A DNA stretch of 32,000 bases from an uncultured Muribaculaceae bacterium (GTDB lineage Bacteria; Bacteroidota; Bacteroidia; Bacteroidales; Muribaculaceae): the NCBI GenBank assembly GCA_910588245.1, contig CAJUQP010000008.1, forward strand, positions 56,706-88,705. Reading direction: 5' to 3'. The notes beneath the pieces were generated by a model. The model saw only the letters and a program-made list of their open reading frames with translations, was not told where the DNA came from and did no database searches. Made by a program: the position numbers and the translations under genes. Of this stretch, positions 1-19,920 are shown piece by piece; positions within the stretch are counted from its first letter, which is position 1, and each line of letters starts with the position of its first letter.

Positions 1-255
1 GTCCAGGAGAAGATTGATGATCTACAGGCAAACATTGATCAGCGCAATAATGATATCAAAGAAGCGAATGAAACGATTGCCGAGATTCAGGCCAAGCTTG
101 ATGCCGGTGATGATCCTTCATCCCTCATTGACATTCAAGAACTCGAAGCCCAGATCGCCACTATGGAGACCGAGGTGACTGTACTTCAGAAGAAGGTAGA
201 CCTTGCCAAGGCTGCTCTCGACGCTGCTATGGCTGAGGATGCTCCCGCTGAGTAA
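1..255 (+). CDS. 3' end (84 codons plus stop) of an Ala-rich coiled-coil surface lipoprotein, paralog of 1083..3008; the 5' end lies left of the window
   Basis: Frame 1 is open from nt 1 to TAA at 253..255 (VQEKIDDLQANIDQ...AKAALDAAMAEDAPAE*). It aligns without gaps to the last 84 aa of the 641-aa ORF at about 50% identity by eye, and the last 17 aa are identical. It is absent from the ORF track because no start codon lies in the window. Confidence 0.8.
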   Translation, partial: VQEKIDDLQANIDQRNNDIKEANETIAEIQAKLDAGDDPSSLIDIQELEAQIATMETEVTVLQKKVDLAKAALDAAMAEDAPAE

Positions 256-1053
256 TTTAGTCCCCGTAAAACGGCAAACAATTTAAAAGTAGAAAAAATG
301 AAACTTCACAGACTTTTAATTTCAGCCGTTCTACCCATGATGTGTCTTACCGTCGCCGCTCAGGAGAGCGACAATACCCCGCAGAAGGGGGACTTCACCG
401 TAGCGGCTACGGTAGGATACAACAGTTTTACAAATGTCTCCGCTCTCCCCGGAAACCTCACCGACTACGAGGCTTCGGCCATCTCCAACCTATGGAGCGA
501 CAAGAAGCTGATGGTCGGGTTCGAAGGCGGATGGTTCGTCGGAGACAGATGGAAACTTAATCTGGGAGGAGGACTGAACTTCACCCACAACCCCGGTTAT
601 CCGGATCTACCCGGAACAATCGACGGGACCACAGGTGACGACACCTTGGGAGAGATACCCAACTACAGGGCCGTGGCAAGCCAGTATTCATGCAACTACA
701 ACGTGTATACAGGCCTCGACCGCTACTTCTCTTTCCCCAATGTCAGCAACCTGATGTGGTACACCGGAGTGCGTGTAGGCTTCGCCTACGCCCTCAACGA
801 ACAGAAATACGACGAATGGACTTCGATGGGCAAGTCCGTAGGCCAGACCTGGAGTCTCCGCGGAAGCCTTACCCTCGGATTCGATTACTACCTGCTCCCG
901 GCAATGTATGTCGGTGTCTCGGTCGATCCGTTTGCGTATTCCTACAACATGACTACCTACCGTCCGCAGGAGGGGCTATCTTCGCTCGAGGCTGACAGCA
1001 GCAATTTCTCGATCCTGGCAGCCCCAACCCTAAAGATCGGATTCAAATTCTAA
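204..1053. repeat. Direct repeat copy 1 (~850 bp): lipoprotein 3' tail, 42-nt spacer and the whole beta-barrel gene
   Basis: Matches 2957..3806 at an offset of 2753 bp. I found five differences: 219/2972, 228/2981, 1008/3761, 1041/3794 and 1052/3805. ORF-track translations are identical in three reading frames (298/3051, 342/3095, 690/3443), so the interior is essentially nucleotide-identical. Confidence 0.92.
298..1053 (+). CDS. Outer-membrane beta-barrel protein, 251 aa (OMP_b-brl-like; possibly the BT1926-type barrel family)
   Basis: Signal peptide MKLHRLLISAVLPMMCLTVAAQ. Alternating hydrophobic, Gly/aromatic-rich strands follow. The C-terminus LKIGFKF ends in Phe, typical of BAM-dependent barrels. 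It lies 42 nt downstream of a lipoprotein gene. Confidence 0.85.
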   Translation: MKLHRLLISAVLPMMCLTVAAQESDNTPQKGDFTVAATVGYNSFTNVSALPGNLTDYEASAISNLWSDKKLMVGFEGGWFVGDRWKLNLGGGLNFTHNPGYPDLPGTIDGTTGDDTLGEIPNYRAVASQYSCNYNVYTGLDRYFSFPNVSNLMWYTGVRVGFAYALNEQKYDEWTSMGKSVGQTWSLRGSLTLGFDYYLLPAMYVGVSVDPFAYSYNMTTYRPQEGLSSLEADSSNFSILAAPTLKIGFKF

Positions 1054-1082
1054 CCAAAGCAAACAATACAAAAAAATAACCT

Positions 1083-3008
1083 ATGAAACAGAAACTTTTC
1101 TTAGGAGCACTTCTCTTGGGAGCTTTGACTCTCAACAGCTGTGTCGACGACACAGAGAACATTGGCGTCACCAACGTACGCCAGGCAAAAGCCGAGCAGA
1201 TAAAGGCTTTGGCCGAATACAACAAGGCCGAGGCCGAGGCTAAAATCACTAAGGCCAACACTTTCAAGGCCGCTCAGGAAGCCTTGGCAGAATATAAGAA
1301 TGCATTGGCCGCTGTGGAAGAAGCCAAAGCGGCAGTCCGTCAGGCGCAGGCCGAAGGTAAAGCCGCTGATGCGGAAAGAGCCCAGATTATTCTTCAGCAG
1401 GCACAGATGGATCTCCAGAACTATGCCAAACAGGTTGAAGTGAATGCGGCAGCCTTGGAAGCAAGCCTTCTTAATTGGCAGAGACGCATAATAGAGAAAC
1501 AAATGGAGCTACAGGCTGAAATCAAAGGTTCATCCCCCGATGAAGCTGTCGAACTTCAGAAACTTCTCAAAGCCTATACAGATGCCTCTTCCGCAGTTTC
1601 ATCAACCGAAGCATCTCTTGCAAGGACTCGCCTTTCCTTGGAAAGTGTAAAGGCAGGACTTCTTTCCACGAAAGAGGGATATGAGCAAACAATCACACTC
1701 AATCAAAACAACATTAAGGAGGCTCAGGACGATATCGCAGAATTGGAAGCTCAGCTTGCCGTCTATGAGGGATACACCAATGTAACTGAAGCAAATGATG
1801 CTCTTGAAAAAGTCAAAGAGCAAATCCCAGTCCTGCAAGACACATATAAGGATCTCTATGCTGCGTATTTGTTGCAGAACGACAAGCTGAACAATGCTTA
1901 CAATGCAATGGAGAACTCGGCATATAAGCAGAACGTGAAAAAAATCGAATATCAGCTCATTAATAATGAGAATTGGAACTGGTATTGGAATATAATTACG
2001 GATGGATACACCAATTCCGATAATATGTACATTGTAACGTCAATTTACGCAGCTTCGTATAAATTGAATACTACTACAGGAATTTGGGGAGAAGTAAAGA
2101 TCCCCGTCTTCAATGGAGATGTTCCTGTCAAGAAGGAGGTCGAGTATTCTTATGCTGAAGGGCAGAAAATTGAAACGCAGCCTTACTATGTCTACAATGA
2201 CTACTACATGCCTGTAAAGGATGGTTTCACAAAATTTGAAGCAGCTGTAAAAGCTGACATCAAAGCCACAGAACAGAAAGCGCTCGATGATGCCAAGGCT
2301 GAGTACACTAAAAAAGAGACTGCGCAGAAAGCAGCCGCCACAGCCAAGGAGGCAGCAGATGCCGCACTCAAGGCTGCTCAGGCAGCATTGACCGCTGCCG
2401 GCGACAATGCAACCGAAGCCCAGAAAAAAGCTGTAAAAGATGCCGAAGGCACTGTAGCATCTGCCAAAGCTACTCTTGACACAGCAAATGCCGAACTTGC
2501 AACAGAGAAAGACAATGTCGAGAATGCTCAGAATGCACTGGATGCTGTCAACGAGAAGCTTGCCGAGATTAAAGCCATCTATGACACAGCCGTTGCCGGA
2601 GTATCGGACAATGAGGCCAATATGAAGGCTTACAATGACGAATCGCTCAAAGCAGCTCAGGCATGGGTGGCTCAAGACAAGGCTGAGAATACTCTTACTC
2701 TCAAGAATTCAGAAAAGAGATCGTTACAGAACATCGTCAACAATGGTGGGAATATTCTCTATGAGATCAAGTATCTCAAGGAGCAGATCGAAAGCAAGAA
2801 CAATGATATCGCCGGCTACGAGAAAGCTATCAAGGATGCCGAGGCTGAACTCGCCAAGGGAGATGATGCAAGCAAGCTTAAACTCATACAGTGGTATGAA
2901 AATAGCATTGCTATATTGGAGACCCAGTTAAGCGTTCAACAAAAAGTATATGACGCTGCCAAGGCTGCTCTTGACGCTGCCATGGCTGAGGATGCTCCCG
3001 CTGAGTAA
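1083..3008 (+). CDS. Surface lipoprotein, 641 aa: lipobox, N-terminal Ala-rich coiled coil, aromatic-rich central module, C-terminal Ala-rich coiled coil (S-layer-like candidate)
   Basis: MKQKLFLGALLLGALTLNSC has a signal peptide and lipobox Cys20. Long heptad-like A/E/K/Q-rich segments occupy aa ~30-270 and ~385-641. The central aa ~280-385 contain 14 Tyr and 4 Trp. The start is 29 nt after the upstream barrel gene. Confidence 0.85.
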   Translation: MKQKLFLGALLLGALTLNSCVDDTENIGVTNVRQAKAEQIKALAEYNKAEAEAKITKANTFKAAQEALAEYKNALAAVEEAKAAVRQAQAEGKAADAERAQIILQQAQMDLQNYAKQVEVNAAALEASLLNWQRRIIEKQMELQAEIKGSSPDEAVELQKLLKAYTDASSAVSSTEASLARTRLSLESVKAGLLSTKEGYEQTITLNQNNIKEAQDDIAELEAQLAVYEGYTNVTEANDALEKVKEQIPVLQDTYKDLYAAYLLQNDKLNNAYNAMENSAYKQNVKKIEYQLINNENWNWYWNIITDGYTNSDNMYIVTSIYAASYKLNTTTGIWGEVKIPVFNGDVPVKKEVEYSYAEGQKIETQPYYVYNDYYMPVKDGFTKFEAAVKADIKATEQKALDDAKAEYTKKETAQKAAATAKEAADAALKAAQAALTAAGDNATEAQKKAVKDAEGTVASAKATLDTANAELATEKDNVENAQNALDAVNEKLAEIKAIYDTAVAGVSDNEANMKAYNDESLKAAQAWVAQDKAENTLTLKNSEKRSLQNIVNNGGNILYEIKYLKEQIESKNNDIAGYEKAIKDAEAELAKGDDASKLKLIQWYENSIAILETQLSVQQKVYDAAKAALDAAMAEDAPAE

Positions 3009-3806
3009 TTTAGTCCCCGTAAAACGGCAAACAATTTAAAAGTAGAAAAAATGAAACTTCACAGACTTTTAATTTCAGCCGTTCTACCCATGATGTGTCT
3101 TACCGTCGCCGCTCAGGAGAGCGACAATACCCCGCAGAAGGGGGACTTCACCGTAGCGGCTACGGTAGGATACAACAGTTTTACAAATGTCTCCGCTCTC
3201 CCCGGAAACCTCACCGACTACGAGGCTTCGGCCATCTCCAACCTATGGAGCGACAAGAAGCTGATGGTCGGGTTCGAAGGCGGATGGTTCGTCGGAGACA
3301 GATGGAAACTTAATCTGGGAGGAGGACTGAACTTCACCCACAACCCCGGTTATCCGGATCTACCCGGAACAATCGACGGGACCACAGGTGACGACACCTT
3401 GGGAGAGATACCCAACTACAGGGCCGTGGCAAGCCAGTATTCATGCAACTACAACGTGTATACAGGCCTCGACCGCTACTTCTCTTTCCCCAATGTCAGC
3501 AACCTGATGTGGTACACCGGAGTGCGTGTAGGCTTCGCCTACGCCCTCAACGAACAGAAATACGACGAATGGACTTCGATGGGCAAGTCCGTAGGCCAGA
3601 CCTGGAGTCTCCGCGGAAGCCTTACCCTCGGATTCGATTACTACCTGCTCCCGGCAATGTATGTCGGTGTCTCGGTCGATCCGTTTGCGTATTCCTACAA
3701 CATGACTACCTACCGTCCGCAGGAGGGGCTATCTTCGCTCGAGGCTGACAGCAGCAATTTTTCGATCCTGGCAGCCCCAACCCTAAAGATCGGTTTCAAA
3801 TTCTGA
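2957..3806. repeat. Direct repeat copy 2 (~850 bp), partner of 204..1053
   Basis: Same evidence as copy 1. Identity stops exactly at the stop codon (TAA in copy 1, TGA in copy 2), and the flanks diverge immediately after it. Confidence 0.92.
3051..3806 (+). CDS. Outer-membrane beta-barrel protein, 251 aa, protein-identical duplicate of 298..1053
   Basis: The translation is 251/251 identical to 298..1053. The only coding differences are synonymous: TTC/TTT at 1008/3761 and GGA/GGT at 1041/3794. Confidence 0.85.
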   Translation: MKLHRLLISAVLPMMCLTVAAQESDNTPQKGDFTVAATVGYNSFTNVSALPGNLTDYEASAISNLWSDKKLMVGFEGGWFVGDRWKLNLGGGLNFTHNPGYPDLPGTIDGTTGDDTLGEIPNYRAVASQYSCNYNVYTGLDRYFSFPNVSNLMWYTGVRVGFAYALNEQKYDEWTSMGKSVGQTWSLRGSLTLGFDYYLLPAMYVGVSVDPFAYSYNMTTYRPQEGLSSLEADSSNFSILAAPTLKIGFKF

Positions 3807-3972: not shown

Positions 3973-4015
3973 GAAGGACGCGATGACGTGATGTCAGCGC
4001 GCCCTTCTCCTTTTT
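3973..4015 (+). terminator. Candidate intrinsic terminator of the lipoprotein/barrel operon
   Basis: GC-rich hairpin: gaagg-a-cgcg-a-tgac [gtgat] gtca-g-cgcg-c-ccttc (3973..4007). It has 13 pairs with two 1x1 mismatches and is followed by tcc then ttttt (4011..4015). Confidence 0.5.
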
Positions 4016-4107
4016 ACAATTAGTAATTAGAAATTTGCAATTAGCAATTGCTGAAAGCCTTTTTTACAATTTGCAATTAGAAATTTGCAATTAGCAATTG
4101 CTGAAAG
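4011..4107. repeat. Tandem 47-nt repeat, two copies (period 50 bp), with a nested 13-mer aatt(t/a)g(c/t)aattag and the palindrome gcaattgc
   Basis: 4011..4057 tttttacaattagtaattagaaatttgcaattagcaattgctgaaag matches 4061..4107 tttttacaatttgcaattagaaatttgcaattagcaattgctgaaag at 45/47. The 13-mer occurs four times: 4018, 4032, 4068 and 4082. Confidence 0.9.
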
Positions 4108-4295
4108 ATGATTTTATAATTACGGAAATGAAATCATCGGTTTCGGGGAGTTAATACGGCTTTGCGTAATCTATCATCAATTATAATCATCCGGCAACTA
4201 TCAATTATAAGCCGGGGCGAGAGGCGGGATTGAAGAATGTCGATATTGTGCTATAGAAAGTCGATATTTTCATAGAATATGGCGGATAATCGCTG

Positions 4296-4330
4296 TAATT
4301 TTGTAAATTGGTTGAAATCGTTTAAATTTG
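4296..4330 (+). promoter_or_regulatory. Two candidate Bacteroides -7 boxes (TAnnTTTG) upstream of the GH95 gene
   Basis: TAATTTTG at 4296..4303 and TAAATTTG at 4323..4330. They lie 96 and 69 nt upstream of the preferred ATG at 4399. This is a motif match only. Confidence 0.3.
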
Positions 4331-4398
4331 CATGTAATTCATACAGACCTATACGACGTGACATCATCCTACAACACGGCATAACACCCATCCACAAT

Positions 4399-6840
4399 AT
4401 GAACAGACTTGACATTCTGCTGGCCATAGCAATGGCAGCATCGCCCGGGGTCGCGGCCATCAACGCGGCATCACCTGCCGGAACAAATTCCGGCAACAAT
4501 CCGCTGACCCTGATCTTCGACCGTCCCGCAGACTTCTTCGAGGAGACTTTCGTGATCGGCAACGGCACACAGGGAGCTATCGTTTACGGCAATCCATCGC
4601 GTGAACGGCTATCGCTCAACGACATCACTTTCTGGACAGGAGGCCCTGACACGGCAGTATATTCCCCCGGCGCATACAAGGCGATACCGGATATCCGCGC
4701 CGCTCTCGACAAGGGAGATTATGCTCTCGCCGAACAGCTCCAAAAGAAGGTGCAGGGCCACTACACGGAAAACTATCAGCCCATCGGCAACCTATTCATA
4801 GATTTCGCCGACAAATCGCAGCCCGAGAACTACCGGCGCACGCTCGACCTCAACACCGCCCGCGTGAAGACCACATACACGAAGGGGGGCAACGAGATAA
4901 CTACGGAATATCTCGCATCGGCGCCCGACAGCCTGATAGCGGTGAGGATACGCTCACAGCGTCCTATCAACCTGTCGCTGAGTTTCGAATCTCCGGTGAA
5001 ATACAGCGTGACCTCCTCCGGTTCGCGTATAATGGCTGAAGGACAGGCCGGCACGCACTCGCTCCCGTCGTATGTGGAGGGAAACCTTGCCAAAAATCTT
5101 ACATATGAGGGGGAACGAGGCATACGGTTCCGCACCGATATCTCAGCATACACCCCCGCAGGAAAGATCACGGCCACCCCTCAGGGAAGCCTTGACGTGG
5201 CAGGCACCACCGACCTCACCATCTACGTCACCATAGCCACAAACTTCGCGGGAGCATCCGCCGATCCCAACACCGCGGGCGTAGACTATAAAGGACGCGC
5301 CGACCGTCTGGCCGACAAAGCCTTGCAAGCCGGTTTCATGAAGATCGCCGACCGCCAGCTCGCCGACTATTCAGAGCTTTTCTCGCGCGTGACAATCGAC
5401 TTCGGCGACTCTCCGGCGGCATACAACGCAATGCCGACGGGAAAGCGACTGATGCAATATACCGACGCCCACACCTACGACCCCGACCTGGAGGAACTCT
5501 ACTTCCAATACGGCCGCTATCTGCTGATCAGCTGCTCGCGCACTCCCCGCGTGCCAGCGAATCTCCAGGGGCTATGGAATGAATCCCTGCTTCCGCCATG
5601 GAGTTCGAACTACACCTCCAATATCAATCTGGAGGAGAACTACTGGCCGGCAGAGGTGACCAACCTGAGCGAGCTGCACATGCCTATGCTCACATTCATC
5701 AGCCAGCTTCCCACTACCGGGGAGACGACAGCCCGCGAGTATTACGGAGCGAAGCGCGGATGGAGCCTGGGGCACAACACCGACATCTGGGCAATGACAA
5801 ATCCCGTAGGACTCCGCGGAGGCGATCCCTCATGGGCCAACTGGAACACCGGAGGCGCCTGGGTGGTATCGCATATCTGGGAACACTACCTCTTCACGCA
5901 GGACAAGGCCTTCCTGCGCGAATATTATCCCCTGCTCAAGGGCGCGGCGGAATTCTGTCTCGACTGGATGACGGAAGACAAGGAGGGACATCTCATCACA
6001 TCGCCCGCCACATCGCCGGAGAATAAATTCATAGCTCCCGACGGTAAAGCCTACGCCACAAGCGCCGGAAACTATTCCGACATAGCAATGATCCGCGAGT
6101 GTCTCGAAGACGCCTTAGCGGCTGCGAAAACGCTTAATACGGATGCGTCCCTGCGAAAGGAGATAACCAAGGCCCTCGCACGCATGAAACCATACAGGGT
6201 CGGATCGAAAGGGCAGCTTCAGGAATGGGTGGAGGATTTTCCCGAGCAGGATCCGCAGCACCGCCACCAGAGCCATCTCTACGGACTTTTCCCCGGCCAT
6301 CACATATCGGTGGAGAAGACTCCCGAACTCGCGAAAGCCGCGGCCCGCACCCTTGAGATAAAAGGAGAAAACACCACAGGATGGAGCACCGGATGGCGCG
6401 TGAACCTCCTCGCCCGACTCGCCGACTCGGAGAAGGCTTATTCAATGTACCGCCGGCTGCTGAAATACGTAAGCCCCGACAACTTCAGGGGGTATGACGC
6501 ACGCCATGGCGGAGGCACGTATCCCAACCTCCTCGATGCCCACGCACCTTTCCAGATCGACGGCAACTTCGGTGGCACTGCCGGAGTGGCGGAGATGCTC
6601 CTGCAGTCCACTCCCGAGACGATCACTCTTCTCCCGGCCCTCCCCGACCAGTGGGAATCGGGTAGTTTCAAAGGTCTGAAAGCCCGCGGAGGCTTCGAGA
6701 TAGATGCCGACTGGACAGGGAAAGCCGTCAGAAACCTGACCATAAGCTCGCAGAAAGGCGGGAAGACAACCCTTCTCGTCAACGGCAAGAAGACATCCGT
6801 ATCCCTTAAGCCGGGCGAATCAAAGACGCTACAGTGGTAA
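4399..6840 (+). CDS. Glycoside hydrolase family 95 (alpha-L-fucosidase / alpha-L-galactosidase type), secreted
   Basis: GH95-type N-terminus: LIFDRPADFFEETFVIGNGTQGAIVYGNPSRERLSLNDITFWTGGP. Core motifs include PANLQGLWNE, NINLEENYW and TGWSTGWRVNLLARL. I prefer ATG 4399 (MNRLDILLAIAMAASPGVAA, a signal peptide) over the ORF-track start at 4279. Confidence 0.9.
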   Translation: MNRLDILLAIAMAASPGVAAINAASPAGTNSGNNPLTLIFDRPADFFEETFVIGNGTQGAIVYGNPSRERLSLNDITFWTGGPDTAVYSPGAYKAIPDIRAALDKGDYALAEQLQKKVQGHYTENYQPIGNLFIDFADKSQPENYRRTLDLNTARVKTTYTKGGNEITTEYLASAPDSLIAVRIRSQRPINLSLSFESPVKYSVTSSGSRIMAEGQAGTHSLPSYVEGNLAKNLTYEGERGIRFRTDISAYTPAGKITATPQGSLDVAGTTDLTIYVTIATNFAGASADPNTAGVDYKGRADRLADKALQAGFMKIADRQLADYSELFSRVTIDFGDSPAAYNAMPTGKRLMQYTDAHTYDPDLEELYFQYGRYLLISCSRTPRVPANLQGLWNESLLPPWSSNYTSNINLEENYWPAEVTNLSELHMPMLTFISQLPTTGETTAREYYGAKRGWSLGHNTDIWAMTNPVGLRGGDPSWANWNTGGAWVVSHIWEHYLFTQDKAFLREYYPLLKGAAEFCLDWMTEDKEGHLITSPATSPENKFIAPDGKAYATSAGNYSDIAMIRECLEDALAAAKTLNTDASLRKEITKALARMKPYRVGSKGQLQEWVEDFPEQDPQHRHQSHLYGLFPGHHISVEKTPELAKAAARTLEIKGENTTGWSTGWRVNLLARLADSEKAYSMYRRLLKYVSPDNFRGYDARHGGGTYPNLLDAHAPFQIDGNFGGTAGVAEMLLQSTPETITLLPALPDQWESGSFKGLKARGGFEIDADWTGKAVRNLTISSQKGGKTTLLVNGKKTSVSLKPGESKTLQW

Positions 6841-6868
6841 AGGTTAAAGTATTAAAGCTTTAACCTTT
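6839..6868. terminator. Hairpin at a convergent gene junction (possible bidirectional terminator); carries a 20-nt motif repeated at 30042..30061
   Basis: aaaggttaaag (6839..6849) pairs with ctttaaccttt (6858..6868) across an 8-nt loop. It overlaps the GH95 stop (6838..6840) and the stop and last codons of the minus-strand GH63-like gene. The stem is AT-rich, so terminator function is uncertain. Confidence 0.4.
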
Positions 6869-8799
6869 CCACCCCCTCCGTATTCCTGATAGAGCATGAT
6901 CAGATGGGAGGCGCTCCAGCTGAAATGGGGAGCCTTGAGACGCTCACCGGTATGGGTGCCGTAGTTCTCATGGATCGGGGCTCCCTCCTTCAAGCCATCA
7001 AGACGGTCGAACACCTGACGCGTATAGGCGTCGGCAAGATCGTCATGGCCGTAATTGCGCAGTCCGCTGATGGCGAAATAGGTCTGGTCGAGCCATATCG
7101 GGCCTCTCCAGTAGCCGCGGGGATTATACTTCGGGTTGTCGGCAGCGATGGTCGGGAAAGGTATATAAGTGGAAAATTTCGTGGTGTCCTGCAGCACAGG
7201 CATCATTGCCTCCACCTGCTCAGGCTTCGCGAGACCGGTCCAGAGCATAGTGTACGCCTCGCAGCCGGGATCGCCCACAGAGCGGCGGTCGCCAAGATGG
7301 CGGTCGAAGAAGAATTTACGCTCCGGATCAAAGAAATAGTCGGCTATGCGATCCGTTTGGTCAGGGGCGTCAAACCTCTCCCCTAATATGGCGGCGAATT
7401 TCTTAAGATAGCGGCATTCATTGGCAAGATAGGCGTTGAGGTCAACGCTCTCCTGATCCATGCTCCAGGCATCTTTCTCCTCATTGTTGGGGAGCATCGT
7501 CACATCGTCGAACCGGATAGCGTTGTCCATGCCGCTCTCCCATGCGGCAGCCTCGAGCGTGCCGTCGACAGATCCATATTCGCATATGCCGTTGGCGTCA
7601 TGGTCGCGTTTGGCATACCACCACTTGTAATAGGCCAGAAGTTGCGGATACATCTCTGCGAGAAACTCCCTGTCGGCCGTAGCCTCCCATATCTTGTCGA
7701 CAGCCCAGCACACCAGCGGGGGTTTGGAATCGCGCGCGTTGTTCTCGGCAGGATCGGTATATATGCAGTCTATCACCATTCCGTCGGGTTGCTGGTAATC
7801 AAACATCGCCCGGATATTATTCTTGGCGAGCTCCGGATCGAAAGCCGCCGCGCCCGCTGAGAACCGCCAGCTGTCCCAGGCCCAGAGGCCCACGAAATAT
7901 CCCACGGCGTGACTCGGGATGATACCGTCGTGGAGAAGGCCGCCGCGTGCCACCCGGTGGTTTGAGACCAGAGTGGTGATCGCCTTCACCGCTATACGGT
8001 CATATTCGTCGGGCATGTCGTCGCGAAGCGTCTTGCGCAGATAATCCTCCCAGCGCCGTCCGTTTTCGGCAAGTGCCGAAGCAGGATCGCTGAGTATGGA
8101 GTCTATCCTCTCCGCGCTCGCGTCGTAGTCCTCCCTGTCAGCGAAGAAACTTATCACGACATGATCTGAATCCCTGACAGGGGTGCGGGCCACATAATTG
8201 CCGGCGTCGACCTTTATCTCCGTCTCCGGAGCAAAAGTGAGAGCCACTATCTCGCCGGAAGGATGGGAGGCCAGCACAGTGTTGCCCACCTGCTCCAACG
8301 AAATCTCAGGGGCCCACTCCAGACCGGTGTAGCTCAACCCCTTCCCCGTGGTGTTCTCCACGCTCAGCAGCGCTGAAGAGGCATCTATAAAGTTGAGCCT
8401 CTGCCCTATGCGGCCGTTGCCGAAAGCGGAACCTATGTGAAGTTCTCCGGGATAATAGCACACGGAGTCGGGACTCCCCTTCCCGCCATCGGCAGGAGTG
8501 ACGGTGACAGCCGACTTGGCCATCCACTGACGGCGGTTCATGTCGAGGCTGAACGGGCCGCAGAAGCCGTCGGTCCATGCCGCGCGCTCCGGAGAGGTGA
8601 ATCCGAACCAGGCCCCCGCGTCGGTAAACCATCCTGTGCACCGGTGAAGGGTGTCGGGGGTGTAGGATATGTCGAAAATATCAGGAAATCCGTATCTGAT
8701 GTTCTCGGAAGCGGAGGCCCGCACACAAGAGATCGTGGCGGCGCCCCCGGCTCCGAAAAGCAAAGCAATGAGTATGAAGAATAGTGTGTTGCGTCTCAT
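6844..8799 (-). CDS. GH63-like (YgjK / MGH1 / trehalase-superfamily) (alpha/alpha)6 glycosidase, high-GC copy
   Basis: Motifs resemble E. coli YgjK: VGLWAWDSWRF, KPPLVCWAV, and RDHDANGICEYGS...AAAWESGMDNAIRFDD. The protein has a signal peptide and possibly a lipobox (AATISC). The ORF-track start at 8805 is TTG; I prefer ATG 8799 (MRRNTLFF). Confidence 0.82.
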   Translation of the reverse strand: MRRNTLFFILIALLFGAGGAATISCVRASASENIRYGFPDIFDISYTPDTLHRCTGWFTDAGAWFGFTSPERAAWTDGFCGPFSLDMNRRQWMAKSAVTVTPADGGKGSPDSVCYYPGELHIGSAFGNGRIGQRLNFIDASSALLSVENTTGKGLSYTGLEWAPEISLEQVGNTVLASHPSGEIVALTFAPETEIKVDAGNYVARTPVRDSDHVVISFFADREDYDASAERIDSILSDPASALAENGRRWEDYLRKTLRDDMPDEYDRIAVKAITTLVSNHRVARGGLLHDGIIPSHAVGYFVGLWAWDSWRFSAGAAAFDPELAKNNIRAMFDYQQPDGMVIDCIYTDPAENNARDSKPPLVCWAVDKIWEATADREFLAEMYPQLLAYYKWWYAKRDHDANGICEYGSVDGTLEAAAWESGMDNAIRFDDVTMLPNNEEKDAWSMDQESVDLNAYLANECRYLKKFAAILGERFDAPDQTDRIADYFFDPERKFFFDRHLGDRRSVGDPGCEAYTMLWTGLAKPEQVEAMMPVLQDTTKFSTYIPFPTIAADNPKYNPRGYWRGPIWLDQTYFAISGLRNYGHDDLADAYTRQVFDRLDGLKEGAPIHENYGTHTGERLKAPHFSWSASHLIMLYQEYGGGGKVKALIL

Positions 8800-8845
8800 A
8801 ATCAAAGTTATTGTCTTGTTGTTCTATGATGCCTGACGCCGGATG

Positions 8846-12049
<3,204 letters not shown>

Positions 12050-12073
12050 TCAGCCTCCTCAATACGGCAGAGG

Positions 12074-12679
12074 TCAAGCCAGGCTGCAGAAGAACGTCAC
12101 CAGGAAGGGGACGCTGAAATCCACCACAAATCCATGATAGATCGAGAGGATGACAAATTCCTTGCCGGAGACATTGGTGATGATAGGCAGCGTAGTGTCC
12201 ATAGATGTGGCGCCTCCCGAGCTTATGGGTGCCAGAGGGCCGAAGAAGCGGGCAAGCAACGGCGCCCCGAGCAGAGTGATGATCTCACGCGCTATGTTGG
12301 CGAGCAGGGCTACCGTGCCGAGCTCCGCGCCGCGATATTCGGTGATGAATATGCTCGACAGGGAGTAATAGCCGAATCCGCTTCCCACGGCGAGCACATC
12401 CGTGATATGACGCCAGGGCATCAGCAACGCTATGAGGCAACATCCGGCGAGGGTGCCGACAATGGTGACGACGGGAAGCAGCAGGAGCCTCGGATGGAGG
12501 GTGCGGAGCCCCTTGAGGGCCCCGAGATCGTTGCCGACTCCTATGCCTACGCAGAGCATCAGGCATGCAAGTGCCACGAAACTTATGTCGAACCCGAACT
12601 GGTCGATATGGATCCAGTCCATACCTCCGGCTATGACACCGAGGATGAAGAATCCGACTATGATCATGCTCCCCTTCAT
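12074..12679 (-). CDS. LysO/YbjE (DUF340) family exporter, large C-terminal-type subunit (~201 aa)
   Basis: GSGFGYYSLSSIFITE...NIAREIITLL...GGATSMDTTLPII...YHGFVVDFSVPFLVTFF matches my recollection of the C-terminal two-thirds of E. coli YbjE. I prefer ATG 12679 (MKGSMIIVG), which overlaps the upstream stop as ATGA (tcat at 12676..12679 on +). The ORF-track start at 12718 is GTG. Confidence 0.85.
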   Translation of the reverse strand: MKGSMIIVGFFILGVIAGGMDWIHIDQFGFDISFVALACLMLCVGIGVGNDLGALKGLRTLHPRLLLLPVVTIVGTLAGCCLIALLMPWRHITDVLAVGSGFGYYSLSSIFITEYRGAELGTVALLANIAREIITLLGAPLLARFFGPLAPISSGGATSMDTTLPIITNVSGKEFVILSIYHGFVVDFSVPFLVTFFCSLA

Positions 12680-12957
12680 TTCCTTGCGGCCTCCCTGCCG
12701 CTGCGCGCCCGGCGCCACAGGAAGAGAGCCAGAAGCGCGCTCCCGGCCACTCCTCCTGCCGCCACAGCTATGGCCTCAAGGCCAAGTGAGGCTATTCCTC
12801 TGATTATCCTCTCATCGCCTCCGACTTCCACTCCCAGCAAAAAGAGAAGCACCCAGATAAGGAAATTCGTCACTTTCCCGAGATATGTCAGCTTCCTGCG
12901 GCGCAGCAGCCATCCTATGGCGATGCCCGAAGCCATGATAAGAATAATCTTGAACAT
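12676..12957 (-). CDS. LysO/YbjE (DUF340) family exporter, small N-terminal-type subunit (93 aa)
   Basis: Three predicted TM helices. MFKIILIMASGIAIGWLL...FLIWVLLFLLGVEVG resembles the YbjE N-terminus. The two parts total 93 + 201 aa, close to the ~299 aa of single-chain YbjE. Coupled to the next gene by an ATGA overlap. Confidence 0.8.
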   Translation of the reverse strand: MFKIILIMASGIAIGWLLRRRKLTYLGKVTNFLIWVLLFLLGVEVGGDERIIRGIASLGLEAIAVAAGGVAGSALLALFLWRRARSGREAARK

Positions 12958-12997
12958 ATTGATGTCTTAGTTTAAATTGATAAAAAAATATAATCTA

Positions 12998-16252
<3,255 letters not shown>

Positions 16253-16260
16253 TCATCTTT

Positions 16261-18264
16261 TTAATCTTCATGGAGCATCTTGATAATGCATGCAGAACTC
16301 CATCCAAAATTAGGAGAATTGAGTGTTTCTCCTGTAAGGGGATTGTAATTCTCATGTATCGGGCCATCAGTGGTGAGACCCTGTGCATTGTCGATAAATT
16401 TCTCCGTCAGGAAGTCTGCCTCCTTATCATATCCATAATTGCGCAGACCTTTGATTCCGAAATACACCTGGTCGACCCACACCGGACCTCTCCAGTAACC
16501 ACGGGTTGGACGAAGACGAGGATGGCTCACCTCAAGCGTTCCCAACGGAAGAGTGGAATTGAACTTGGAAGGATCCATCATCTTATCCTTCACCTTTCTT
16601 GCCTGTTCTTCCGTAGCGATTCCGGCCCATAGCGGCAGCCAGCATTCAGCACCCATTACCTTTACAGGCTCACCGGTGCCAATCCTTGTATCGTAGAAGA
16701 ATCCTGTTTCCTCATCCCACATCTTAGTCTGGACAAACTTCTTTATTTTCTCCATATCCTTCCTTAACTCTTTTGCCAGAGCCGGTTTTCCAAGAATATC
16801 GGCCATTTCAGCCAACAGGGATTTCTCCATATGCAGGAATGAATTCAAGCAGATATTCTCCTGATTCATCGACCATGCATTCTCACCATTTTTCAACATT
16901 ACGGCATCATCGAAACGCACCCCATTATCCATACCGCTTTCCCAGCATGCAGCCAGGAGTGTGCCATCGGTAGAACCATATTCACATATACCGTTGTGAT
17001 CATGGTCTCTTTCCGCATACCACCATTTATGGAACTTATATATTTTTGGGAAAACTTCTTCAAGGAATTTCTTATCGCCCGTCTTCTTATATACATTCAT
17101 GGCTCCCCATGCTGATACAGGGGGTTTGGTATCACGCCAGTTGTTCCGTTTTTTATTATATCCTATGAAATCAGGCACCATGCCATTGTCTGCCTGATAA
17201 TCGAAAAGGGTGATTATGTCATTCTTAGCTATATCCTCATTAAAAAAGACATTCCCCGAAGCGATTTTCCATGAATCCCATGACCATATGCCATTAATGA
17301 ATCCGTTGTAAGACGGATTGCTCCCTCCTGTAAGGATATCGCCGGCAGGAGTGCGATAGTTACTGTTAAGGGTCATCATGGCTTTCACCAATACCTTCCG
17401 GTATTTATTGTCGGAAAGATATTTGCTGTTGCCGGTCAGGAGTTTGGCAATACGTGCGTTCCACTCTTTTTCATTATCGGCGAAACACTTGTCGATGTCA
17501 AACCCTTTGAGCGATGCCAATTCCTGCCCGAGGTTTTCTCCTTTAAGCATCAGAGTCTCCGTAATAGCAGATTCATATGTCTCGCCGGGTTTTAGAGTCA
17601 ATCCTTTCTTTTCCACCACGCGTAAGCTGTCGTTGCCATTTGCCTCAACCTTGTCTGCGGTAATAAATCTTACCGCTGTGCTGACAGAATCTGTAGGACG
17701 CAGGAATGAGATTCCCTTATCCACTGGTGTTGACACTGATTTTTTGTCGTGTACTCCCCCGATCCAGTCAAAATCAATCTCAACGGGTTTGTCGCCTACA
17801 TTCTTCACAATCGAACGTATAGCAGCCGAACGTGGAGTCACATAGCAAAATTCTGTGGTGAAATTAAGATTCTCATCATTATACTCCTGTTTCAGTTTGC
17901 CCGGAAGATATTGGGTTGTCTGCACGTTACGGACCATATTGTAGCGAGTGCCATTCACTTTCAGTTGTGGCTCTGCCAACGCATTGGCAATCCAGCCTCT
18001 ACCCGTCATGACCATCGGGCCCATAAAGGCTCCGGCATATTTAACGTTTTCTTTATCGGGTAAGGAATATGCCATCCAGGCTCCTTTGTCAGCGAATACA
18101 AAAGCATCCCAGTCGACAGGGCCGGCAGGAGTATTTTTAATATTTATAAGATTGCTGAAGTCCTCTTGTTTTGTCAACAAAGGTTCCGTAGCGTATACCG
18201 CTGCAAGTCCGGAAGACATGAGTATGAGGGAGAGAGCGAATTTTGAAAATCCAGATATTTTCAT
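16261..18264 (-). CDS. GH63-like (YgjK / MGH1 / trehalase-superfamily) (alpha/alpha)6 glycosidase, low-GC copy
   Basis: Motifs GIWSWDSWKI, KPPVSAWGA and RDHDHNGICEYGS...AACWESGMDNGVRFDD. Roughly 55% identical to 6844..8799 in the core by eye. I prefer ATG 18264 (MKISGFSKFALSLILMSSGLAA); the ORF-track start at 18270 is GTG. Confidence 0.82.
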   Translation of the reverse strand: MKISGFSKFALSLILMSSGLAAVYATEPLLTKQEDFSNLINIKNTPAGPVDWDAFVFADKGAWMAYSLPDKENVKYAGAFMGPMVMTGRGWIANALAEPQLKVNGTRYNMVRNVQTTQYLPGKLKQEYNDENLNFTTEFCYVTPRSAAIRSIVKNVGDKPVEIDFDWIGGVHDKKSVSTPVDKGISFLRPTDSVSTAVRFITADKVEANGNDSLRVVEKKGLTLKPGETYESAITETLMLKGENLGQELASLKGFDIDKCFADNEKEWNARIAKLLTGNSKYLSDNKYRKVLVKAMMTLNSNYRTPAGDILTGGSNPSYNGFINGIWSWDSWKIASGNVFFNEDIAKNDIITLFDYQADNGMVPDFIGYNKKRNNWRDTKPPVSAWGAMNVYKKTGDKKFLEEVFPKIYKFHKWWYAERDHDHNGICEYGSTDGTLLAACWESGMDNGVRFDDAVMLKNGENAWSMNQENICLNSFLHMEKSLLAEMADILGKPALAKELRKDMEKIKKFVQTKMWDEETGFFYDTRIGTGEPVKVMGAECWLPLWAGIATEEQARKVKDKMMDPSKFNSTLPLGTLEVSHPRLRPTRGYWRGPVWVDQVYFGIKGLRNYGYDKEADFLTEKFIDNAQGLTTDGPIHENYNPLTGETLNSPNFGWSSACIIKMLHED

Positions 18265-18283
18265 ATTCACATATTTTTAAGAT

Positions 18284-18342
18284 TCAGGTGGCTAACCGAC
18301 TATTGCAATTAAATTGAACAATCATGCCGATTGGCCACCTGA
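18284..18342 (-). other. 9-bp perfect inverted repeat with a 41-nt spacer between the SusD-like gene and the GH63-like gene (intra-operon stem-loop candidate)
   Basis: tcaggtggc (18284..18292) pairs with gccacctga (18334..18342). It lies within the 93-nt susD-to-GH intergenic region. Confidence 0.4.
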
Positions 18343-18363
18343 GACGGAAATATTTAACTAATA

Positions 18364-19899: not shown

Positions 19900-19920
19900 G
19901 ATTGCTTGATTTTAAAGATT

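What the first reader, a model, noticed from the sequence alone, without database searches (positions are those of the whole stretch)
1..3806. Tandem lipoprotein + beta-barrel surface cassettes: barrel genes homogenised, lipoproteins diverged
Each unit is a coiled-coil lipoprotein gene followed, after a 42-nt spacer, by a 251-aa beta-barrel gene. At least two units sit in tandem (period 2753 bp) and the array runs off the left edge.

An ~850-bp block (204..1053 = 2957..3806) is almost nucleotide-identical. I find five differences, all synonymous or a TAA/TGA stop change, and three reading frames translate identically. Identity switches on abruptly inside the last ~50 nt of the lipoprotein genes and switches off exactly at the barrel stop codon. 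The lipoprotein bodies just upstream are only ~50% identical.

This sharp-edged pattern points to gene conversion or a very recent cassette duplication, not simple divergence after duplication. The long direct repeats are also a ready substrate for recombinational loss or amplification of a 2.75-kb unit, which would vary which or how many lipoproteins are made. The invariant lipoprotein tail AKAALDAAMAEDAPAE lies inside the homogenised block, so tail and barrel may be a co-evolving docking pair.
Basis: partly seen in the sequence, partly recalled or inferred. Interest (0 to 1): 0.75.

Follow-up and report, generated by a model that had tools for sequence, protein, structure and literature searches.

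The report
Two stacked surface-lipoprotein/barrel cassettes, identity overstated
A mouse-gut Muribaculaceae bacterium carries two tandem copies of a known Bacteroidales surface module (a variable coiled-coil lipoprotein plus a small outer-membrane barrel), and most of the striking near-identity of the two barrel genes was created by short-read assembly.

Summary
The repeat is in the window exactly as described: 204..1053 and 2957..3806 (offset 2753) differ at 5 positions. Each unit is a lipoprotein gene, a 42-nt spacer and a 251-aa barrel gene.

The near-identity is largely an assembly artefact. In 26 assembled copies of this two-unit locus, unique DNA is invariant. The only variable sites are 20 biallelic positions inside the barrel repeat. 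Each is always written identically into both copies, in five blocks that assort freely (14 mosaics). SNPs up to 53 nt apart stay linked and those 57 nt or more apart do not, as expected for a k=55 de Bruijn collapse.

Related one-unit strains, where collapse is impossible, carry the two complementary haplotypes. So the real copies differ at 25 of 850 nt (97.1%, 4 amino acids, dS about 0.11). Copy 2 is identical to an allele in another strain, which is the opposite of concerted evolution.

What survives: there are exactly two units. The barrel belongs to PF16961 / the "BT1926 family" (8 strands, OmpA/OmpW-like). The lipoprotein bodies are saturated at synonymous sites, while the first ~45 residues, the last 16 residues and the barrel are constant.

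Best reading: two alleles of a BT1927/BT1926-type surface-coat locus stacked in tandem. No invertible promoter was found.

The parts
1..255 (+). 3' end (last 84 codons plus TAA) of lipoprotein A. The full gene is 624 aa and starts 1,620 nt left of the window (L001 7299..9173).
   Evidence: Frame 1 is open to the TAA at 253..255. The extended contigs give the full gene with a signal peptide, lipobox Cys20 and CVDDTE.
204..1053 (+). Repeat copy 1: the last 16 lipoprotein codons, the 42-nt spacer and the barrel gene.
   Evidence: It differs from 2957..3806 at 5 positions as written. The real haplotype is inferred to be H1 (CT|TCC|AACGTA|AT|GCTCTGGT|T|CAA at the 25 variable sites).
205..252 (+). 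Invariant lipoprotein C-terminal tail AKAALDAAMAEDAPAE (copy 1). The same tail lies at 2958..3005.
   Evidence: identical in lipoproteins A, B and C; a related motif ..AKAALDAA..E occurs at the C-terminus across Bacteroidales homologues.
298..1053 (+). Barrel gene copy 1 (251 aa; signal peptide MKLHRLLISAVLPMMCLTVAAQ, then an 8-stranded outer-membrane barrel).
   Evidence: PF16961 OmpA_like E=1e-88. Homologues at 66-72% identity are named 'BT1926 family outer membrane beta-barrel protein' by NCBI. AF2 gives 8 strands. The nearest folds are OmpA-TM, OmpW and OprG. The real protein is probably R69 K84 S148 I175.
354..933 (+). Interior of copy 1 that holds the 20 collapsed paralogue differences: blocks a 354/375/381; b 474/477/492/503/522/548; c 609/646; d 740/741/768/777/786/792/816/821; e 933.
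   Evidence: The sites are biallelic, always the same in both copies, and the blocks assort freely among 26 assemblies.
1054..1082 (+). 29-nt spacer between barrel 1 and lipoprotein B. It is too short for a separate promoter, so one transcription unit is inferred.
   Evidence: sequence. Inference.
1083..3008 (+). Lipoprotein B (641 aa): signal peptide, lipobox Cys20, acidic CVDDTE export-signal-like motif, helices 27-294, a small beta domain 300-370, helices 381-635 and the conserved tail.
   Evidence: no curated family. AF2 pLDDT 79.8. 50% aa identity to lipoprotein A and 41% to lipoprotein C. Asp at +3/+4 matches the B. fragilis export signal (PMC5080379).
2957..3806 (+). Repeat copy 2: tail, 42-nt spacer and barrel gene.
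   Evidence: The real haplotype is inferred to be H2 (TC|CTG|TGAACG|CC|ATAACCAC|C|TTG), which is identical to the barrel block of one-unit strains L045/L046.
3051..3806 (+). Barrel gene copy 2 (251 aa, TGA stop).
   Evidence: The protein as written (K69 R84 N148 T175) equals the inferred H2 protein.
3107..3686 (+). Interior of copy 2, with the same 20 collapsed sites (offset +2753).

Best explanation
The locus holds two tandem copies of the Bacteroidales two-gene surface module typified by BT1927/BT1926 of Bacteroides thetaiotaomicron.

Anatomy. Each unit encodes a lipid-anchored, mostly alpha-helical surface lipoprotein. Its first ~45 and last 16 residues are constant and its body is hypervariable. 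The lipoprotein gene is followed by an 8-stranded OmpA/OmpW-like outer-membrane barrel, which is probably its membrane partner or anchor. The four genes (lipoA, barrel, lipoB, barrel) are spaced 42, 29 and 42 nt apart, so they are probably co-transcribed from one fixed promoter upstream of lipoA. The cell would then display two different lipoproteins at once.

The two barrel blocks are not nearly identical in the organism. They are two alleles, H1 and H2, that differ at 25 of 850 nt and at 4 conservative residues. Short-read de Bruijn assembly (k about 55) merged the interior of the repeat, popped the paralogue 'bubbles' at random, and wrote the chosen branch into both copies.

Both H1 and H2 also occur as single-copy alleles in related one-unit strains, next to a third lipoprotein allele. 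The two-unit arrangement is therefore best read as two allelic cassettes stacked in tandem. The conserved tail-plus-barrel and the 5' end would serve as the homologous segments at which hypervariable lipoprotein bodies are exchanged between strains.

Shown here: the anatomy, the family of the barrel, the collapse, the two haplotypes and the one-unit relatives.
Inferred: surface display, barrel-lipoprotein pairing, co-transcription, and the selective reason (phage or host immunity).
For: Repeat and genes.

Barrel family and fold:
- PF16961, E=1e-88.
- NCBI-72% identical homologues 'BT1926 family outer membrane beta-barrel protein'.
- 8 strands in the AF2 model. Top PDB folds are OmpA-TM, OmpW and OprG.

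Lipoprotein:
- Lipobox Cys20 with D at +3/+4, as in the B. fragilis export signal (PMC5080379).
- Helices, a small beta domain, then helices.
- The N-terminus is conserved and the rest diverged across 22-29 homologues. Taketani 2015 describe the same pattern for BT1927 homologues, which also sit next to a barrel gene (PMC4611039).
- BT1926 is regarded as the putative anchor or partner of BT1927 (PMC12578637).

Assembly collapse:
- In 26 two-unit sequences the interior is the same in both copies (26/26) and the edge SNPs are copy-specific (26/26). There are 14 mosaics and each block is near 50:50.
- Unique DNA shows no differences across 21.9 kb in the eight full-length assemblies.
- The tandem AAA-ATPase_like/PDDEXK_9 pair upstream behaves identically. 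Across the two pairs, linked SNP gaps are 53 nt or less and unlinked gaps are 57 nt or more.
- The four barrel protein variants occur on 251, 222, 161 and 118 contigs.

Haplotypes:
- One-unit strains L045/L046 carry exactly H2 with copy-2 edge alleles.
- L054, L058, L060, L063 and L065 come from different studies and assemblers, including MEGAHIT k141 and k113. They carry the complementary interior haplotype H1 (one block-d site differs in L060 and L063) with copy-1 left-edge alleles.

Divergence: barrel H1/H2 dS 0.112 and dN 0.007; lipoprotein bodies pS about 0.8 and dN 0.43-0.69; inter-strain flank divergence 0.85%.

The same constant-ends, variable-body pattern occurs between two dispersed cassettes in the finished B. 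hominis genome.
Against: - No reads or long-read assembly of the two-unit strain were available. The phase (copy 1 = H1, copy 2 = H2) is inferred from edge alleles and from other strains.
- Homology of the lipoproteins to BT1927 itself was not tested, because its sequence was not obtainable. These lipoproteins are about 69 kDa, against about 100 kDa for BT1927.
- NCBIfam release 20 gave no hit for the barrel, although NCBI names its homologues 'BT1926 family'.
- Pairing of lipoprotein and barrel, surface exposure and co-transcription are not demonstrated.
- Two small contigs (L047, L048) join lipoB, barrel and lipoB again. The simple two-unit model explains this only as an assembler mis-walk.
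Confidence: 0.8

Rival explanations
1. True concerted evolution. Gene conversion keeps the two barrel copies almost identical within each genome. The variation among assemblies is real strain-to-strain polymorphism that is converted into both copies.
For: - In every one of 26 assemblies the two copies have the same interior.
- A second species (L029, a Sangeribacter MAG) also shows two units with a 610-nt perfectly identical barrel interior.
- Dispersed barrel paralogues in the finished B. hominis genome are 95.5% identical although their lipoproteins are unrelated at nucleotide level. Some homogenisation or cassette exchange therefore does occur in this family.
Against: - It would require 14 or more mosaic barrel alleles in strains whose 21.9 kb of unique flanking DNA shows no SNP at all.
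- It would require the same behaviour in an unrelated neighbouring gene pair. It would also require block boundaries that fall exactly between 53 and 57 nt.
- The two alleles at all 20 sites sort into two complementary haplotypes that exist intact in one-unit strains.
- Copy 2 is identical to an orthologous allele (0 differences) while differing from copy 1 at 25 sites. This is the opposite of the signature of concerted evolution.
- L029 is also a short-read SPAdes assembly, so the same caveat applies.
Confidence: 0.07
2. The bubbles come from two co-existing strains in every sample. Each strain has its own homogenised barrel pair, so they are not differences between the two copies of one genome.
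For: Metagenomes often contain strain mixtures. Both H1-type and H2-type barrels exist in different natural strains.
Against: - Two strains that differ only inside two tandem repeats, and nowhere else in 21.9 kb, are implausible.
- Block frequencies are close to 50:50 across many samples.
- The known H1- and H2-carrying one-unit strains differ from the two-unit strain in their flanks (0.85%) and in their lipoprotein. Their presence would create bubbles outside the repeat as well.
Confidence: 0.05
3. Functional rival: the barrel is a dedicated secretion pore for the lipoprotein (a two-partner-secretion-like system, as first suggested for BT1927-BT1926), not an anchor or partner.
For: Taketani 2015 proposed this from the conserved adjacency and the extended conserved N-terminus. 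The conserved N- and C-termini could be recognition signals.
Against: - The model has only 8 strands and resembles OmpA-TM, OmpW and OprG. Such barrels have no lumen able to pass a 640-aa polypeptide.
- The lipoprotein has an ordinary lipobox plus an acidic export-signal-like motif, which suffices for surface export in Bacteroidota.
- Later work treats Bt1926 as a putative anchor whose complex formation depends on the BAM dome.
Confidence: 0.12
4. The duplication itself is an assembly artefact and the organism has only one unit.
For: - Repeats are error-prone in short-read assemblies.
- Some scaffolds are visibly mis-built. L042 lacks barrel 1 and has 100 N. L012 has 100 N, and L012 and L015 show a single truncated (329-aa) upstream ATPase-like gene where other assemblies show two 520-aa genes.
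- One-unit relatives exist.
Against: - LipoA and lipoB are different genes (50% aa identity) and both are present.
- All four junctions (lipoA into the repeat, repeat into lipoB, lipoB into the repeat, repeat into the GH95 flank) are assembled with constant copy-specific edge SNPs in 26 sequences.
- The one-unit strains carry a different lipoprotein (lipoC) and diverged flanks.
Confidence: 0.02

Closest known systems
BT1927/BT1926 S-layer locus of Bacteroides thetaiotaomicron and its seven paralogous 'S-layer lipoprotein / OmpA beta-barrel' loci (Taketani 2015, PMC4611039; Porter 2020, bioRxiv 10.1101/521070; Silale 2025, PMC12578637)
   Same: - The gene order is the same: a surface lipoprotein immediately followed by a small outer-membrane barrel.
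- The barrel belongs to the family NCBI names after BT1926 and is predicted to have 8 strands, as reported for Bt1926.
- The lipoprotein has a strongly conserved N-terminal ~45-48 residues and a poorly conserved remainder.
- Paralogous or allelic copies share nucleotide identity in their constant parts.
   Different: - No GTTAC-N7-GTAAC inverted repeats, no adjacent tyrosine recombinase, and no alternative promoter orientation in any assembly.
- The lipoproteins are about 69 kDa rather than about 100 kDa.
- Two cassettes lie head-to-tail, apparently in one operon, instead of being dispersed and separately switched.
- The host is a Muribaculaceae bacterium.
- Direct sequence homology to BT1927 was not tested. 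Lattice formation is unknown.
Surface-lipoprotein/beta-barrel complexes of Bacteroidota in general (SusCD, BtuBG and others), exported via the lipoprotein export signal (Lauber 2016, PMC5080379)
   Same: An N-terminal Cys is followed by acidic residues at +3/+4 (CVDDTE). The lipoprotein gene is adjacent to an outer-membrane barrel gene. This fits the phylum's hallmark lipoprotein-barrel pairing.
   Different: The barrel is an 8-stranded OmpA/OmpW-like protein, not a 22-stranded TonB-dependent transporter. No transport function is indicated.
Collapsed near-identical repeats in de Bruijn graph assemblies (bubble popping within a two-copy repeat)
   Same: - Differences survive only within about k of the unique flanks.
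- Interior variants are written identically into both copies.
- Blocks are delimited by a fixed distance (between 53 and 57 nt) and assort at random between assemblies.
   Different: Nothing differs. This is the textbook behaviour. The attribution to k=55 is inferred, because the assembler settings were not available.
Concerted evolution / gene conversion between tandem paralogues (e.g. tuf genes or rRNA operons; from general knowledge)
   Same: A sharp-edged block of high identity is flanked by diverged sequence. The long direct repeats are a substrate for RecA-dependent exchange.
   Different: The defining signature fails. Paralogues should be more alike than orthologues, but copy 2 equals an orthologous allele (0/850) and differs from copy 1 at 25/850.

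Membership tests
PF16961 OmpA_like / 'BT1926 family outer membrane beta-barrel protein' | Significant match to the family profile above its curated cut-off | tested here: met
   PF16961 E=1.1e-88, 296.7 bits against a cut-off of 26.6, covering profile positions 1-195 of 195.
PF16961 OmpA_like / 'BT1926 family outer membrane beta-barrel protein' | Close homology to proteins carrying the BT1926-family name | tested here: met
   P0025 and P0027 (72% identity, Paramuribaculum intestinale) and P0082 (66%, B. fragilis) are named 'BT1926 family outer membrane beta-barrel protein' by NCBI.
PF16961 OmpA_like / 'BT1926 family outer membrane beta-barrel protein' | Hit to an NCBIfam model for the family | tested here: inconclusive
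   no NCBIfam release 20 model matched the barrel at E<=1. The NCBI name may come from a rule or model that is not in this library.
PF16961 OmpA_like / 'BT1926 family outer membrane beta-barrel protein' | Signal peptide plus an 8-stranded outer-membrane barrel | tested here: met
   8 strands with strand pLDDT of about 86-94 and mean pLDDT 70.8; best PDB folds are OmpA-TM, OmpW and OprG. This is a model only; no solved relative was found by sequence.
BT1927-type S-layer lipoprotein | Encoded immediately upstream of a BT1926-family barrel gene | tested here: met
   There is a 42-nt spacer in both units, and the same order in 24 related loci from Muribaculaceae, Bacteroides, Alistipes/Rikenellaceae and others.
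BT1927-type S-layer lipoprotein | Highly conserved N-terminal ~48 residues (signal peptide and beyond) with a weakly conserved remainder (Taketani 2015) | tested here: met
   C20, V21, D22, E25, V29, R33 and K36 are invariant or nearly so, while overall column identity is 25-37%. One search gives the published description.
BT1927-type S-layer lipoprotein | Sequence homology to BT1927 itself | not tested
   The BT1927 sequence could not be obtained. The supplements are not held and the searches returned only unnamed proteins. The lipoproteins are homologous to those in the same position in B. hominis, B. cellulosilyticus and a Bacteroides MAG (blastp E from 1e-10 to 1e-40).
BT1927-type S-layer lipoprotein | About 100 kDa protein that forms a surface lattice | tested here: not met
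   Size: 624-641 aa (about 69 kDa), against 928 aa reported. Lattice formation cannot be tested with these tools.
Phase-variable (invertible-promoter) S-layer locus | Promoter flanked by inverted repeats (GTTAC-N7-GTAAC or 17-nt imperfect palindromes) | tested here: not met
   the motif is absent from L001 and from all 66 loci, with up to 1 mismatch allowed in L001; upstream there is only a 21-bp terminator-like hairpin and weak AT-rich repeats.
Phase-variable (invertible-promoter) S-layer locus | Tyrosine recombinase gene next to the locus | tested here: not met
   none of the genes called within 7 kb upstream and 10 kb downstream has a recombinase domain on record. The neighbours are SecDF, two AAA-ATPase_like/PDDEXK_9 genes, GH95, GH63-like and GH2; none elsewhere in the window.
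Phase-variable (invertible-promoter) S-layer locus | Both promoter orientations present in populations | tested here: not met
   the upstream region has no differences in the eight full-length assemblies. Reads were not examined.
Bacteroidota surface lipoprotein (export-signal-bearing) | Lipobox Cys followed by acidic residues at about +3/+4 | tested here: met
   ..LNSC-VDDTE.. in lipoproteins A, B and C, and CVDD/CVDN in homologues. The criterion comes from PMC5080379. Surface exposure itself cannot be tested here.
Concerted evolution / gene-conversion tract | Paralogues in one genome more similar to each other than to orthologous alleles in other strains | tested here: not met
   inferred copy 2 equals the L045/L046 allele (0/850). 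Copy 1 differs from the L054-type allele at about 10 sites. Copy 1 and copy 2 differ at 25 sites.

The most novel reading that the evidence does not exclude
The constant parts of the module are the lipoprotein 5' end and the 16-codon tail plus barrel. They may act as recombination 'handles' that let Muribaculaceae swap, stack and perhaps amplify or excise hypervariable coat-lipoprotein cassettes. This would be population-level surface variation by cassette exchange and copy-number change, instead of the promoter inversion used by Bacteroides.

The invariant tail would be the physical docking element for the barrel. The two loop contigs (lipoB, barrel, lipoB again) would then be real amplification or circular excision products of the 2,753-bp unit.
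Probability: 0.3. Interest if true: 0.55.

Novelty: new member of a known kind. Interest (0 to 1): 0.3.

Why it matters
- Biology. The BT1927/BT1926-type coat module, studied so far only in Bacteroides, extends to Muribaculaceae, the dominant Bacteroidales of the mouse gut. Here it occurs in a form without an invertible promoter. Diversity instead comes from very old lipoprotein alleles on a constant barrel scaffold, and from one-unit versus two-unit loci. This is relevant to phage and antibody evasion in mouse-model microbiota.
- Method. This is a clean, quantified example of how short-read metagenome assembly manufactures apparent 'gene conversion'. Paralogue differences are erased and a chimeric sequence is written into both copies. 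Scans for concerted evolution in MAGs need to exclude this.
- Structure. The conserved tail and barrel remain a reasonable, untested target for work on how these lipoproteins are held on the cell surface.

Tried and rejected
- Curated families for the lipoprotein: only weak coiled-coil noise in Pfam and NCBIfam.
- Sequence search of the PDB with family profiles for the barrel and the lipoprotein: nothing.
- Foldseek of the lipoprotein model: only generic long coiled coils such as SMC, MukB and PrgA, which is not informative.
- The afdb50 fold library was unavailable.
- Trying to reach BT1927 by name. Two lipoprotein searches, one with a single sequence and one with a 22-sequence profile, returned only unnamed or 'hypothetical' proteins. 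The supplements of Taketani 2015 are not held.
- The species' own reference genome was not found in the GTDB collection. The best barrel match was 86% (an uncultured Muribaculaceae MAG), so no finished genome of the two-unit strain could be examined.
- Looking for a correctly phased two-unit assembly via the barrel protein variants and lipoA. Every two-unit contig recovered had collapsed interiors. The MEGAHIT k141 and k113 contigs turned out to be one-unit strains.
- A JGI metagenome scan was not run, because none of these proteins is recorded from JGI sources.
- Invertible-promoter idea: rejected.
- The 80-aa ORF upstream of lipoA (L001 6945..7187) overlaps a perfect 21-bp hairpin and has an odd composition. 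It was treated as spurious.

Full report
**1. Is the observation in the sequence?**

Yes. A direct repeat with offset 2753 is present. In register, window 204..1053 and 2957..3806 differ only at 219, 228, 1008, 1041 and 1052. Positions 219 and 228 are third codon positions in the lipoprotein frame. Positions 1008 and 1041 are third positions in the barrel frame. Position 1052 turns TAA into TGA.

The two barrel ORFs (298..1053 and 3051..3806) encode the same 251 residues. The spacers are 42 nt. Identity drops to background immediately after the stop codon. To the left of 204 it drops to about 48%, where the two lipoprotein genes are still homologous in register.

**2. Extending the window**

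An exact look-up of lipoprotein B found the same locus on many metagenome scaffolds and MAG contigs. Window position 1 corresponds to L001 position 8919. The array has exactly two units:
- lipoprotein A (624 aa, L001 7299..9173), then a barrel
- lipoprotein B (641 aa), then a barrel
- then a GH95 gene

Upstream of lipoA lie a 21-bp perfect hairpin, a 15-nt tandem repeat array and two tandem AAA-ATPase_like/PDDEXK_9 genes. No further cassette is present. So the array does not run on to the left.

**3. The near-identity is mostly an assembly product**

I compared the eight full-length 21.9-kb assemblies with the window and with each other. Every difference lies inside one of two tandem repeats: the barrel pair, and the upstream AAA-ATPase_like pair at offset 1942. 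Every difference is present at x and at x+offset simultaneously. Unique DNA shows no differences.

In all 26 two-unit sequences collected:
- the interior is the same in both copies
- the five edge differences are always copy-specific
- the 20 interior biallelic sites fall into five blocks (a 354-381, b 474-548, c 609/646, d 740-821, e 933)
- the blocks combine freely, giving 14 different mosaics, each block near 50:50

The four protein variants that result occur on 251, 222, 161 and 118 contigs.

The SNP spacing fits a fixed k-mer limit:

| Repeat | Gaps within a block | Gaps between blocks or to the nearest phased SNP |
|---|---|---|
| Barrel pair | 37 nt or less | 61 nt or more |
| ATPase-like pair | 53 nt or less | 57 and 60 nt |

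Phase is therefore kept below about 55 nt and lost above it. This is what a k=55 de Bruijn graph does to a two-copy repeat. Paralogue differences become bubbles, one branch is kept, and the collapsed node is traversed twice. The five surviving differences are exactly those chained to the unique flanks by gaps of less than 55 nt: 203-219-228 on the left and 1008-1041-1052-1054 on the right.

**4. Independent confirmation from strains without the repeat**

Related strains have a single unit, with a third lipoprotein allele (lipoC, 629 aa) followed by a barrel and GH95. No collapse is possible there.
- Logan contigs L045 and L046 carry the barrel block TC|CTG|TGAACG|CC|ATAACCAC|C|TTG, with no other difference from the window block.
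- L054 is a 284-kb scaffold from another study. L058 and L063 are MEGAHIT k141 and k113 contigs, and L060 and L065 are further contigs. They carry CT|TCC|AACGTA|AT|GCTCTGGT|T, with one block-d site different in L060 and L063. All have a few private changes near the 3' end.

These two haplotypes are exact complements at all 20 interior sites. Their left-edge alleles match window copy 2 and copy 1 respectively. The simplest conclusion is that copy 1 is H1 and copy 2 is H2 in the real two-unit genome.

That gives 25 differences in 850 nt (97.1%) and four conservative substitutions (K69R, R84K, N148S, T175I). Barrel dS is 0.112 and dN is 0.007, against dS 0.012 for the window as written. The window's interior (H2 at blocks a, b and d; H1 at c and e, in both copies) is a chimera that probably does not exist in nature.

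**5. What survives of the contrast**

The lipoprotein bodies are genuinely far more diverged. Pairwise amino-acid identity is 41-50%. The proportion of synonymous differences is about 0.8, which is saturated. dN is 0.43-0.69. A barrel dS of 0.11 therefore cannot come from simple divergence after one duplication of the whole unit.

But the barrel copies are also not freshly homogenised. They differ about three times more than the flanking DNA of two strains does (0.85%). Each is closer to an allele in another strain than to its neighbour. That fails the defining test for concerted evolution.

The pattern fits old, diversified lipoprotein alleles that recombine onto a conserved scaffold. In this strain two such allelic cassettes are stacked in tandem. 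The breakpoint in the lipoprotein tail recurs (window ~181-204) in lipoA, lipoB and lipoC.

The same constant-ends, variable-body pattern is seen in a finished genome. Two dispersed cassettes of B. hominis share 95.5% identity over the barrel and its flanks and 87.5% over the 5' 248 nt. Their lipoprotein bodies share nothing detectable. A Sangeribacter MAG (L029) also has two tandem units, and B. cellulosilyticus has two lipoprotein genes before one barrel.

**6. What the genes are**

The barrel:
- It matches PF16961 (OmpA_like) at E=1e-88.
- Homologues at 66-72% identity are named 'BT1926 family outer membrane beta-barrel protein' by NCBI.
- The AF2 model (40-sequence alignment, pLDDT 70.8) has a signal helix and eight strands, with two long low-confidence extracellular loops.
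- The best PDB folds are the OmpA transmembrane domain, OmpW and OprG.
- No relative has a solved structure by sequence.

The lipoproteins:
- They have no curated family.
- They begin with a signal peptide, a lipobox Cys20 and CVDDTE. Asp at +3/+4 matches the B. fragilis surface-lipoprotein export signal (PMC5080379).
- The AF2 model (pLDDT 79.8) is helices 27-294, a small beta domain 300-370, and helices 381-635.
- Across 22-29 homologues only the N-terminal ~45 residues and a C-terminal motif ..AKAALDAA..E are conserved.

**7. Comparison with the literature**

Taketani et al. (PMC4611039) describe BT1927 as a secreted surface-layer protein. Its N-terminal 48 residues are 75-100% conserved among homologues and the rest only 31-43%. 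It always sits next to a predicted outer-membrane barrel (BT1926).

Porter et al. (bioRxiv 10.1101/521070) found eight such 'S-layer lipoprotein / OmpA beta-barrel' loci in B. thetaiotaomicron. Each has a tyrosine recombinase and an inverted-repeat-flanked promoter. They are up-regulated in phage survivors, and BT1927 confers phage resistance when locked on.

Silale et al. (PMC12578637) call Bt1926 an 8-stranded putative anchor or secretion partner. They show that S-layer assembly needs the extracellular BAM dome.

The present locus matches this module in gene order, barrel family, barrel fold and lipoprotein conservation pattern. It differs in several ways:
- The lipoproteins are smaller.
- The GTTAC-N7-GTAAC repeats are absent.
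- No recombinase lies nearby.
- The upstream region has the same orientation in every assembly.
- Two cassettes lie head-to-tail, only 29 nt apart, and so are probably in one operon.

A Bacteroides-type -7 box (TAcaTTTG, L001 7168..7175) lies about 125 nt upstream of lipoA. I read this from the sequence using the known consensus, so it is an inference.

**8. Mechanism**

Shown:
- two units
- the barrel family and fold model
- lipoprotein signal features
- hypervariable bodies with constant ends
- one-unit and two-unit strains
- no inversion switch

Inferred:
- Both lipoproteins are exported to the surface and held by, or assembled with, their barrels.
- The N-terminal ~45 and C-terminal 16 residues are the membrane-proximal or partner-contacting parts, and the body is the exposed, selected part.
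- The two barrels differ by four conservative residues and are probably interchangeable.
- Diversity is generated by allelic exchange at the conserved ends, driven by phage or host immunity by analogy with B. thetaiotaomicron.
- The 850-bp direct repeats remain a plausible substrate for deletion or amplification of the 2,753-bp unit.

Two small contigs (L047, L048) run lipoB, barrel, lipoB again. These could be such products, or simply a wrong walk round the graph loop. I cannot decide without reads.

**9. Verdict**

The claims of homogenisation, recent conversion and a longer array do not.

The locus is a new member, in Muribaculaceae and in tandem form, of the known BT1927/BT1926-type surface module. 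Biological interest is modest. The methodological lesson, that MAG assemblies can fake concerted evolution, is the most useful outcome.

Noticed in passing
L001 2896..4458 and 4838..6400 (about 2.5-6 kb left of the window): A second tandem pair encodes two 520-aa AAA-ATPase_like/PDDEXK_9 genes at offset 1942. It shows the same assembly collapse. A 425-nt '100% identical' segment (3061..3485) holds two freely assorting SNP blocks (3117-3201 and 3261-3373), always written into both copies. L012, L015 and L055 instead show a truncated 329-aa gene (PDDEXK_9 only) in place of a full 520-aa copy.
   Followed up: partly
L047 (Logan ERR4371894, 2,567 nt) and L048 (ENA BATT21 scaffold_9706, 2,432 nt): These contigs run lipoB 3' part, barrel, 29-nt spacer, lipoB 5' part. 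That is almost a full turn of the 2,753-bp unit, with a copy-2 left edge and a copy-1 right edge. They are either an assembler walk round the graph loop, or evidence of tandem amplification or a circular excision product.
   Followed up: partly
window 4011..4110: Two tandem 50-nt AT-rich repeats (TTTTTACAATTAGTAATTAGAAATTTGCAATTAGCAATTGCTGAAAGCCT, 90% identical), built from CAATTAG / AATTTGCAATTAG sub-repeats. They lie in the 470-nt gap between barrel 2 and the GH95 gene and may be a regulatory region for the glycoside hydrolase genes.
   Followed up: no
L001 6389..6612 (about 2.3 kb left of the window): About 13 copies of a 15-nt tandem repeat (GTTAAAGCGTTAAAG) directly follow the second AAA-ATPase_like gene. 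Similar arrays match weakly downstream of the first copy and near the GH genes in L054.
   Followed up: no
L001 6939..6985: A perfect 21-bp inverted repeat (AAAGGGATGACCCAGGGTTGC / GCAACCCTGGGTCATCCCTTT, 5-nt loop) lies between the ATPase-like genes and lipoA. It is probably a bidirectional terminator. The 80-aa ORF called over it is probably spurious.
   Followed up: partly
window 4279..22995: The cassettes abut a polysaccharide-utilisation-type region: GH95 (4279..6840), two GH63/MGH1-like hydrolases (6844..8805 and 16261..18270, minus strand), two GH2 genes (8846..11968 and 12998..16252), and a SusD/SusC-like pair (18364..19899 and 19921..22995). The 127-nt repeat at 10249/14428 (76% identity) is simply homology between the two GH2 paralogues.
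   Followed up: partly
L042 (ENA scaffold_3807) and L056 (GCA_948798725.1): In these scaffolds lipoA is followed, after a gap containing N (100 N in L042), directly by lipoB, with barrel 1 missing. In L056 the remaining barrel has a copy-2 left edge, an all-H1 interior and a mixed right edge. These are further signs that this locus is routinely mis-assembled.
   Followed up: partly
L029 2933..8750 (Sangeribacter MAG) and L032 3931..8774 (B. cellulosilyticus DSM 14838): Other species show other stackings of the same module. L029 has two full units, with a 610-nt identical barrel interior and a hairpin terminator between the units. L032 has two lipoprotein genes in front of a single barrel.
   Followed up: partly
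P0019 / L020 55..1290, and P0089 (B. helcogenes): Some family members are 411-418 aa. They fuse the PF16961 barrel to a C-terminal PF00691 OmpA peptidoglycan-binding domain. This suggests the barrel family can also tether the outer membrane to the cell wall.
   Followed up: no
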